A stretch of 64,000 bases of DNA from Escherichia coli (GTDB lineage: Bacteria; Pseudomonadota; Gammaproteobacteria; Enterobacterales; Enterobacteriaceae): assembly GCF_003334815.1 (NCBI RefSeq), contig NZ_QOWO01000017.1, one strand, 5' to 3'. Positions 54,029-55,021 of the stretch are shown here, piece by piece; the first letter of the stretch is position 1, and every line of letters begins with the position of its first letter. The notes beneath the pieces were generated by a model. That model was given only the letters and a program-made list of their open reading frames with translations. It was not told the origin of the DNA and made no database searches. Both the position numbers and the translations under genes were made by a program.

Positions 54029-55021
54029 TTACTCGCGGAACAGCGCTTCGATATTCAGCCCCTGCGTTTGCAGGATTTCACGCAAACGGCGCAGGCCTTC
54101 AACCTGAATCTGGCGAACACGTTCACGGGTGAGGCCAATTTCACGACCTACATCTTCCAGTGTTGCCGCTTCGTACCCCAGCAAACCGAATCGACGTGCC
54201 AGCACTTCACGCTGTTTGGCGTTCAGCTCGAACAGCCATTTGACGATGCTCTGCTTCATATCGTCATCTTGCGTGGTATCTTCCGGACCGTTCTATTTTT
54301 CATCGGCCAGGATGTCCAGCAACGCTTTTTCGGAATCACCACCCAGCGGGGTGTCTACCGAGGTAATGCGCTCGTTAAGACGAAGCATACGGCTGACGTC
54401 ATCAACTGGCTTATCCAGTTGCTCTGCGATCTCTTCCGCACTTGGTTCATGGTCCAGCTTATGGGACAACTCACGTGCGGTTCGCAGGTAAACGTTCAGC
54501 TCCTTTACGATGTGAATCGGCAAACGAATAGTACGGGTTTGGTTCATAATCGCCCGTTCAATCGTCTGGCGAATCCACCAGGTTGCGTATGTTGAGAAGC
54601 GGAAACCACGTTCCGGGTCAAACTTCTCTACCGCGCGGATCAGCCCCAGGTTGCCCTCTTCGATAAGGTCCAGCAACGCCAGACCACGATTGCCATAACG
54701 GCGGGCAATTTTTACCACCAGACGCAAGTTACTCTCGATCATCCGGCGGCGAGAGGCGACATCTCCACGCAGTGCGCGACGCGCAAAATAAACTTCTTCT
54801 TCGGCCGTTAACAGTGGTGAATAACCAATCTCACCAAGGTAAAGCTGAGTCGCGTCCAACACACGCTGTGTGGCTCCCTGCGATAACAGTTCCTCTTCGG
54901 CCAAATCGTTATCACTGGGTTCCTCTTCTACTAAGGCCTTTTCGTCAAAAACCTCAACTCCGTTCTCATCAAATTCCGCATCTTCATTTAAATCATGAAC
55001 TTTCAGCGTATTCTGACTCAT
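54029..55021 (-). pseudogene. rpoS: rpoS (sigma-S) reading frame interrupted by an in-frame amber codon at codon 243 (TAG at 54293..54295); predicted product of 242 aa lacking region 4 unless the amber is suppressed; codon 33 is GAG (Glu)
   Basis: N-terminal ORF 54293..55021 ([14 protein letters not shown]...LDILADEK) and downstream same-frame ORF 54029..54259 ([16 protein letters not shown]...NIEALFRE) are separated only by TAG; the codons after it encode [11 protein letters not shown], continuous with full-length RpoS. Confidence 0.9.

What the first reader, a model, noticed from the sequence alone, without database searches (positions are those of the whole stretch)
54293..54295. In-frame amber (TAG) stop at rpoS codon 243, truncating sigma-S before region 4
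The rpoS frame is otherwise intact from the ATG at 55021 to the normal stop at 54029, but codon 243 reads TAG (plus strand cta), where full-length RpoS has Glu in ...[28 protein letters not shown].... The next 87 codons in the same frame still encode the canonical C-terminus, so this is a single-base nonsense change and not a frameshift or deletion. The truncated product would lack region 4, the -35-recognition and activator-contact domain, so general stress-response output should be strongly reduced unless the strain carries an amber suppressor. Codon 33 here is GAG (Glu), so this is a different lesion from the well-known codon-33 polymorphism of laboratory lineages. rpoS loss-of-function alleles are a classic adaptive outcome of laboratory passage or nutrient limitation, so this marks the strain's history.
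Basis: partly seen in the sequence, partly recalled or inferred. Interest (0 to 1): 0.6.

Follow-up and report, generated by a model that had tools for sequence, protein, structure and literature searches.

The report
Known rpoS amber nonsense mutation (E243*)
This E. coli strain has a single-base change that puts a stop codon in the stress sigma factor gene rpoS, cutting off the promoter-binding tail; it is a real but ordinary loss-of-function allele that has been published and recurs in many unrelated strains.

Summary
rpoS lies on the minus strand (55021..54029). Codon 243 is TAG (54295..54293), codon 33 is GAG, and the remaining 87 codons are intact. The closest relative found (GCA_021722305.1) is identical to the window over 20,135 bp except at base 54295, where it has C (GAG, full-length 330-aa RpoS). 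So the stop is a derived, recent G-to-T change on the sense strand. Pfam puts region 4 at residues 262-315, so the 242-aa product lacks all of it.

The allele is not new. Dong et al. 2009 (PMC2700278) described the same codon-243 GAG-to-TAG change in VTEC strain N99-4390, which had low catalase, grew well on succinate, and was scored RpoS-minus. The exact 242-aa product is on 124 public contigs. The examples I read carry TAG on 7 different rpoS haplotypes and 5 types of gene content downstream of rpoS (toward mutS), which indicates independent origins.

It is not a hotspot either. All 20 other single-step nonsense truncations I looked up also occur, on 47-161 contigs each.

Verdict: an ordinary, already known kind of rpoS loss-of-function allele. 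Whether it arose in the laboratory, in storage or in nature cannot be told from the sequence. A suppressor tRNA elsewhere in the genome and a base-calling error remain untested.

The parts
54029..55021 (-). Complete rpoS reading frame (330 codons plus TAA), interrupted by one in-frame TAG
   Evidence: It is 99.9% identical over 1301 bp to annotated rpoS in thousands of complete E. coli genomes. It matches PDB sigma-S chains 5IPL_F, 6KJ6_F and 6OMF_F at E about 1e-210.
54293..55021 (-). Translated part: sigma-S residues 1-242 (27.7 kDa) plus the TAG. It contains regions 1.2, 2 and most of 3.
   Evidence: Pfam r1_2 56-88, r2 94-163, r3 174-248. The exact 242-aa product P0016 is in public collections.
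54293..54295 (-). Amber codon 243 (TAG). The mutated base is window 54295 (plus strand A; relatives have C).
54029..54292 (-). Now untranslated 3' part of rpoS: codons 244-330 plus TAA, encoding the 3.2-4 linker and all of region 4 (Pfam r4 = residues 262-315, window 54077-54238)
   Evidence: Its sequence is identical to that of full-length alleles.
54029..54259 (-). Mechanical 76-aa ORF (Met255-Glu330, the region 4 fragment). Gene callers list it as a separate gene in other E243* assemblies. It is probably not expressed.
   Evidence: Pairing of its upstream 20 nt with the anti-Shine-Dalgarno sequence is -0.7 kcal/mol, versus -6.5 for the true rpoS start.
55022..55041 (-). rpoS ribosome-binding region (TAGGAG), intact
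53981..54010 (-). GC-rich hairpin plus U-run directly after the rpoS TAA (terminator-like). ygbN lies beyond it on the opposite strand, so nothing downstream is co-transcribed with rpoS.
   Evidence: MFE -27.8 kcal/mol for the folded 54-nt stretch 53975-54028, z = -5.1, 0 of 200 shuffles as stable. The simple consensus scan did not list it.
55084..56223 (-). nlpD, the upstream gene of the nlpD-rpoS unit, intact (379 aa)

Best explanation
A real, recent, spontaneous G:C-to-T:A transversion changed rpoS codon 243 from GAG (Glu) to TAG. Translation ends after Lys242 and gives a 27.7-kDa sigma-S fragment. The fragment keeps regions 1.2, 2 and most of 3. It lacks the end of region 3.2, the linker and all of region 4. 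By established sigma-70-family knowledge, region 4 is the helix-turn-helix domain that reads the -35 element, docks on the beta-flap and contacts activators. The strain is therefore functionally RpoS-negative or strongly attenuated. The general stress regulon (HPII catalase, glycogen, acid resistance) is down. By the known sigma-competition (SPANC) trade-off, sigma-70-dependent nutrient-scavenging genes are up, which is why such alleles are selected under starvation, on poor carbon sources and in stored cultures. Shown here: the base change, its derived and recent status, the domains lost, its recurrence in other lineages, and the published catalase-low phenotype of the identical allele. Inferred: the phenotype in this strain and the selective cause.
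For: The TAG is at codon 243 in an otherwise intact frame. It is the only difference from FORC 064 within rpoS. It is the only difference in 20,135 bp from the nearest relative L023, which encodes a 330-aa RpoS. Pfam domain limits place region 4 at 262-315. The identical codon-243 G-to-T allele in VTEC N99-4390 had low catalase and good growth on succinate and was scored RpoS-minus (PMC2700278). The exact 242-aa product is on 124 contigs. The 12 samples read all carry TAG, on 7 rpoS haplotypes and 5 types of downstream gene content. All 20 other nonsense truncations tested are also present at 47-161 contigs, spread from codon 96 to 320, as expected if any truncation is selected as a loss of function. 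The literature reports frequent rpoS loss under nutrient limitation and during storage (PMC7527412, PMC10401003, PMC5793043).
Against: No read-level data, so a consensus error at 54295 is not excluded. The rest of the genome is not visible, so an amber suppressor tRNA cannot be ruled out; the three tRNAs in the window are Arg-ACG x2 and Ser-GCT. No phenotype is available for this strain. From memory, Gowrishankar et al. 2003 reported region-4-deleted sigma-S to initiate in vitro on supercoiled templates. Only the title and citation of that paper were seen here and the paper is not held. So 'null' may be too strong.
Confidence: 0.88

Rival explanations
1. The truncated sigma-S(1-242) is stable and keeps partial or altered activity, for example on extended -10 or supercoiled promoters that need no -35 contact, or it titrates core RNA polymerase. 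On this reading the allele is attenuated or neomorphic rather than null.
For: Regions 1.2-3, which carry the -10 recognition and the main core-binding surfaces, are retained. A paper on region-4-deleted RpoS exists (Gowrishankar 2003; title seen, content recalled from memory).
Against: The identical allele gave low catalase and was scored RpoS-minus. Nonsense alleles are about equally common from codon 96 to 320 (47-161 contigs). There is therefore no enrichment of region-4-only truncations that would suggest a selected special function.
Confidence: 0.15
2. The A at 54295 is a sequencing or assembly error and the strain really has GAG.
For: It is a single substitution, and the nearest relative has C. 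No reads are available.
Against: The same TAG is independently assembled in many unrelated projects and was Sanger-confirmed in N99-4390. A random substitution error would have to land on one of about 116 stop-creating changes in one particular 1-kb gene that is also the best-known target of real loss-of-function selection. There are no other differences in 20 kb, which argues for an accurate assembly.
Confidence: 0.05
3. The amber codon is read through by a suppressor tRNA (supE or supF type) encoded elsewhere, so substantial full-length sigma-S is still made.
For: The codon after the stop starts with A (UAG-A). From memory, this context favours suppression when a suppressor is present. Suppressors occur in K-12 laboratory lineages (supE44 is mentioned in PMC2763269).
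Against: There is no suppressor tRNA in the window. Codon 33 GAG is the form seen in all ten wild VTEC isolates, whereas MG1655 has CAG (PMC2700278). The flanks match wild and commensal isolates from cucumber, cattle, opossum and human rather than K-12 laboratory strains. Suppressors are rare in natural isolates (my own knowledge).
Confidence: 0.03
4. A split sigma factor: the 76-aa region 4 fragment is translated from Met255 and works in trans with the 242-aa fragment.
For: An ATG-initiated ORF covering region 4 exists and is called as a gene in other assemblies.
Against: There is no Shine-Dalgarno pairing upstream (-0.7 vs -6.5 kcal/mol for the true start). The same 76-aa ORF is a by-product of any upstream truncation (about 1000 contigs). 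The published phenotype is RpoS-minus.
Confidence: 0.01

Closest known systems
rpoS E243amber of VTEC O121:NM strain N99-4390 (Dong, Chiang, Joe, Coombes, Schellhorn 2009, BMC Microbiol 9:118; PMC2700278)
   Same: Identical change: G-to-T at the first base of codon 243, GAG to TAG, giving the same 242-aa product. Codon 33 is GAG in both.
   Different: The genetic background differs. N99-4390 carries synonymous changes at codons 119, 154 and 191 that the window lacks. The origins are therefore independent. No phenotype has been measured for the window strain.
Other natural and laboratory rpoS nonsense and frameshift loss-of-function alleles (SPANC trade-off; Suc++ mutants; storage-acquired mutants)
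   Same: Same gene, same class of lesion, same expected selective logic. All 20 other single-step nonsense truncations tested are present in public data at similar frequency.
   Different: Only the position differs.
K-12 codon-33 polymorphism (GAG / CAG / TAG amber)
   Same: It is also an amber codon in rpoS.
   Different: The window has GAG at codon 33. The codon-33 amber allows re-initiation downstream, giving an N-terminally truncated, partly active protein (PMC2763269). Codon 243 truncates the C-terminus instead.
GASP allele rpoS819 and the Escherich-strain C-terminal tail variants
   Same: These are C-terminal alterations of sigma-S selected in stationary phase or in storage (PMC5793043).
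   Different: They change or extend only the last residues through a duplication or frameshift and are attenuated. Here 88 residues, including the whole of region 4, are removed by a point nonsense mutation, and the 3' end of the gene is unaltered.

Membership tests
rpoS / sigma-S (group 2 sigma-70 family) | Sigma-70 regions 1.2, 2, 3 and 4 in order, with near-identity to E. coli RpoS | tested here: met
   Pfam r1_2 56-88, r2 94-163, r3 174-248, r4 262-315 on the repaired frame. PDB RpoS chains match at E about 1e-210. One nucleotide differs from annotated rpoS.
rpoS / sigma-S (group 2 sigma-70 family) | Genomic position downstream of nlpD, in the pcm-surE-nlpD-rpoS ... mutS region | tested here: met
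   Annotation of the collinear region in FORC 064. ORFs in the window.
rpoS loss-of-function nonsense allele | Premature in-frame stop in an otherwise intact gene | tested here: met
rpoS loss-of-function nonsense allele | Derived state: close relatives carry the sense codon | tested here: met
   L023 is identical over 20,135 bp except that it has C at 54295 and a 330-aa RpoS. No complete RefSeq genome has the same 61-mer around the TAG: 0 of 4,814 matched at 100%.
rpoS loss-of-function nonsense allele | RpoS-negative phenotype (low HPII catalase, no glycogen staining, stress sensitivity) | not testable with these tools
   Published for the identical allele in N99-4390. Not measured for this strain.
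K-12 codon-33 amber lineage | TAG or CAG at codon 33 | tested here: not met
   Codon 33 = GAG.
GASP rpoS819-type allele | Duplication or frameshift at the extreme 3' end replacing the last residues | tested here: not met
   The 3' end is identical to full-length alleles, and the gene length is unchanged at 993 nt.
Suppressed amber or programmed recoding | Suppressor tRNA (CUA anticodon) in the genome, or a recoding signal at the stop | tested here: inconclusive
   The only tRNAs in the window are Arg-ACG x2 and Ser-GCT. The rest of the genome is not available. By inspection, a -1 slip on GAAAAA would run into a stop within about 10 codons, so no productive recoding signal is apparent.

The most novel reading that the evidence does not exclude
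The region-4-less sigma-S(1-242) could be a stable, selected product that still binds core RNA polymerase. It would then either drive a reduced, -35-independent sub-regulon or act as a competitor that re-tunes sigma-70 / sigma-S balance. The recurrent C-terminal truncations would then be altered-function alleles rather than nulls.
Probability: 0.07. Interest if true: 0.4.

Novelty: already known. Interest (0 to 1): 0.12.

Why it matters
The main value is as strain annotation. This isolate should be treated as RpoS-deficient: lower stress, acid and peroxide resistance, altered biofilm and virulence traits, and better growth on poor carbon sources. Experiments or risk assessments that use it as a 'wild type' would be misleading. 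The survey made on the way is a small methodological point. In today's public data, every single-step nonsense site of rpoS that was tested has been hit repeatedly and about equally. This fits the source-sink picture of short-lived loss-of-function alleles, and it means that recurrence alone does not make one such site special.

Tried and rejected
(1) I looked for the same allele in 5,426 complete RefSeq E. coli genomes. No genome has the identical 1301-bp region or the identical 61-mer. A genome with TAG plus another SNP inside the 61-mer would not be recognised by this test.

(2) I tried to identify the source strain. The best complete genomes still differ by 3 SNPs in 25 kb (FORC 064 and others) or by about 10 changes (G1/2). 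The 4.49-Mb contig that carries the 242-aa product (NCBI accessions for this product include STM51998.1 and SRI77243.1) was not among the 10 places that the look-up of encoding contigs can show. The source therefore remains unnamed.

(3) Hotspot hypothesis: rejected. E243* is on 124 contigs, against 47-161 (median about 105) for 20 comparator nonsense alleles.

(4) Mutator hypothesis, because mutS is 7 kb away: mutS is intact and identical in protein to FORC 064. I considered the Escherich strain NCTC 86, but it carries a different rpoS lesion.

(5) Re-initiation or split sigma: rejected for lack of a ribosome-binding site.

(6) A literature search for 'rpoS E243' gave only irrelevant hits. 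The allele was found through a search on truncated RpoS in natural isolates.

(7) Gowrishankar 2003 (PMC152630) and Bleibtreu 2014 (PMC4248845) are not held, so their content is cited from memory or from other papers' reference lists.

(8) The simple terminator scan missed the hairpin after rpoS. Folding shows it clearly.

Full report
**1. The observation**

Read on the minus strand, the window carries a complete rpoS frame from ATG at 55021 to TAA at 54031-54029. Translation gives 331 codons with one internal stop at codon 243. The codon is TAG (window 54295..54293) and codon 33 is GAG. The 87 codons after the stop read [19 protein letters not shown]...EALFRE, the normal C-terminus.

The 1301-bp region matches annotated rpoS of thousands of complete E. 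coli genomes at 99.9%, which is one mismatch. A base-by-base comparison with strain FORC 064 (L001) shows one difference in the gene.

**2. What the gene is and what is lost**

The repaired protein matches the solved E. coli sigma-S chains of 5IPL, 6KJ6 and 6OMF at E about 1e-210. Pfam places the regions as follows:

| Region | Residues |
|---|---|
| 1.2 | 56-88 |
| 2 | 94-163 |
| 3 | 174-248 |
| 4 | 262-315 |

The stop at codon 243 therefore removes the last six residues of the region 3 match, the linker and all of region 4. What remains is a 27.7-kDa fragment instead of the 38.0-kDa protein.

By established knowledge of sigma-70-family factors, region 4 is the helix-turn-helix domain that reads the -35 element, docks on the beta-flap and is contacted by activators.

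The gene's ribosome-binding site is intact, with -6.5 kcal/mol pairing to the anti-SD sequence. A strong hairpin plus U-run follows the natural stop (folded stretch -27.8 kcal/mol, z = -5.1), although the simple consensus scan did not list it. The next gene, ygbN, is on the opposite strand, so no polar effect on other genes is expected.

**3. Ancestral state and age**

In the 37 kb that overlap FORC 064 the window has few differences:
- 54295, the rpoS stop.
- 44417, which gives M24V in a 44-aa ORF between ygbA and mutS.
- 52326, synonymous in ygbM.
- A 20-bp inverted segment at 29924-29943.

The M24V variant is rare: only 9 contigs in the public collection carry it. The one contig returned with DNA (L023, GCA_021722305.1) is identical to the window over 20,135 bp (34352-54486) except at 54295. 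There it has C, and its RpoS is called at 330 aa. The TAG is therefore derived and arose after the split from a relative that is otherwise indistinguishable over 20 kb. mutS is intact, so this window gives no sign of a mismatch-repair mutator.

**4. Is the allele known?**

Yes. Dong et al. 2009 (PMC2700278) list codon 243 GAG-to-TAG (G-to-T) in the natural VTEC O121:NM isolate N99-4390. They describe a truncated RpoS. This was the only one of ten strains with low catalase. It grew uniformly well on succinate and was scored RpoS-minus. That strain has synonymous changes at codons 119, 154 and 191 that the window lacks, so the two alleles arose separately.

The exact 242-aa product is also in the large protein collection (P0016). 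It has NCBI accessions GEH46417.1, SRI77243.1 and STM51998.1 and lies on 124 contigs. I read DNA from 12 different samples.
- All 12 have TAG at codon 243.
- Counting the window, the TAG sits on 7 distinct rpoS haplotypes.
- Five types of gene content follow rpoS toward mutS: a MarR-UbiD island with ygbN, the same island without the ygb genes, a deleted form of the island, a flavodoxin/metallo-beta-lactamase insert, and the short K-12-type form.
- L015 shares the window's rpoS haplotype and the short form. However, it differs by 41 substitutions in 5.7 kb of flank and has a shorter nlpD.

Independent recurrence is the simplest reading. No complete RefSeq genome has the identical 61-mer around the TAG: 0 of the 4,814 genomes matched did so at 100%.

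**5. Is codon 243 special?**

rpoS has 100 codons, and 116 mutational paths, that one substitution can turn into a stop. I looked up the exact truncated products of 20 other such sites, and all 20 exist in public data.

| Allele | Contigs | Allele | Contigs |
|---|---|---|---|
| E96* | 75 | E241* | 143 |
| E122* | 121 | K242* | 51 |
| E132* | 70 | E247* | 53 |
| Q152* | 109 | Q251* | 99 |
| Q161* | 112 | Q257* | 124 |
| E174* | 107 | E265* | 152 |
| E184* | 47 | Q270* | 158 |
| E200* | 49 | E284* | 69 |
| E217* | 120 | Q304* | 161 |
| E231* | 103 | Q320* | 66 |

E243*, with 124 contigs, sits inside this range, whose median is about 105. It is not a hotspot. The even spread along the gene fits selection for plain loss of function wherever the chain is cut. 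It does not fit selection for a particular truncated form.

**6. Mechanism**

- Shown: a recent single-base nonsense change that removes region 4, and a catalase-low, RpoS-minus phenotype for the same allele elsewhere.
- Inferred: this strain is RpoS-deficient.
- From the literature (PMC7527412; PMC10401003; PMC5793043; PMC2763269): rpoS loss is repeatedly selected under nutrient limitation, on poor carbon sources and during storage. It frees core polymerase for sigma-70-dependent scavenging functions at the cost of stress resistance.

The sequence does not say which of these settings applied here.

**7. Rivals**

- **Partial or altered function of the fragment (about 0.15).** Regions 1.2-3 are retained. 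From memory, an in-vitro study reported that region-4-deleted sigma-S can initiate on supercoiled templates. That paper is not held here; only its title was seen. The published phenotype and the flat distribution of nonsense alleles argue against a special role.
- **Base-calling error (about 0.05).** This cannot be tested without reads, but it is unlikely given an otherwise perfect 20-kb match and independent occurrences of the same allele.
- **Amber suppression (about 0.03).** The three tRNAs in the window are Arg-ACG x2 and Ser-GCT. The rest of the genome is unseen.
- **Trans-acting region 4 fragment from Met255 (about 0.01).** There is no ribosome-binding site (-0.7 kcal/mol).

**8. Verdict**

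However, this is an already described, recurrent and unexceptional rpoS loss-of-function allele. Its value is as a strain-quality flag. Interest is low (0.12) and novelty is 'already known'.

Noticed in passing
window 29924-29943 (intergenic, between ascB and hycI): Relative to strain FORC 064, a 20-bp segment is present as its exact reverse complement (ACATGTCGCACGAACCATGA vs TCATGGTTCGTGCGACATGT). It lies between inverted REP-like arms (GCCGGATAAGGCG... / ...CGCTTATCGGGCC). This looks like a small inversion of the spacer of a palindromic unit.
   Followed up: partly
window 44352-44486 (-), SNP at 44417: A 44-aa ORF between ygbA and mutS carries a rare M24V variant. Only 9 contigs in the public collection encode this exact protein. 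It served as a lineage marker to find the nearest relative L023. Whether the small ORF is a real gene is unknown; it has no Pfam hit.
   Followed up: partly
window 5667-6114 (-): The tRNA cluster here has tRNA-Ser(GCT) plus only two tRNA-Arg(ACG) copies, as in strain G1/2. From memory, K-12 has four Arg copies at this locus. Only 70 of 5,426 genomes cover at least 80% of window 1-25000 in one piece, so this part of the window is structurally variable.
   Followed up: no
window 52571-54028, and L002-L021 downstream of rpoS: The window has the short K-12-type arrangement, with rpoS followed directly by ygbN. Other E243* strains carry a MarR-type regulator with flavoprotein/UbiD-like decarboxylase genes, deleted forms of that island, or a flavodoxin plus metallo-beta-lactamase-fold pair at the same place. 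This is the known hypervariable mutS-rpoS region.
   Followed up: partly
L015 1347-2438 (Logan ERR5984604): In this other E243* strain nlpD is 363 aa instead of 379 aa. The alignment to the window breaks at a short repeated stretch (window about 55977-56001), which suggests a repeat-mediated in-frame deletion.
   Followed up: no
protein collection, cluster 2: One 90%-identity cluster mixes truncated or odd-length RpoS proteins with 212-aa Salmonella aldolases (YgbL-like 3-oxo-tetronate 4-phosphate decarboxylase) under a 292-aa representative. This is probably a chimeric or fused gene call bridging two families. Cluster sizes should therefore be read with caution; the per-sequence contig counts used here are unaffected.
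   Followed up: no
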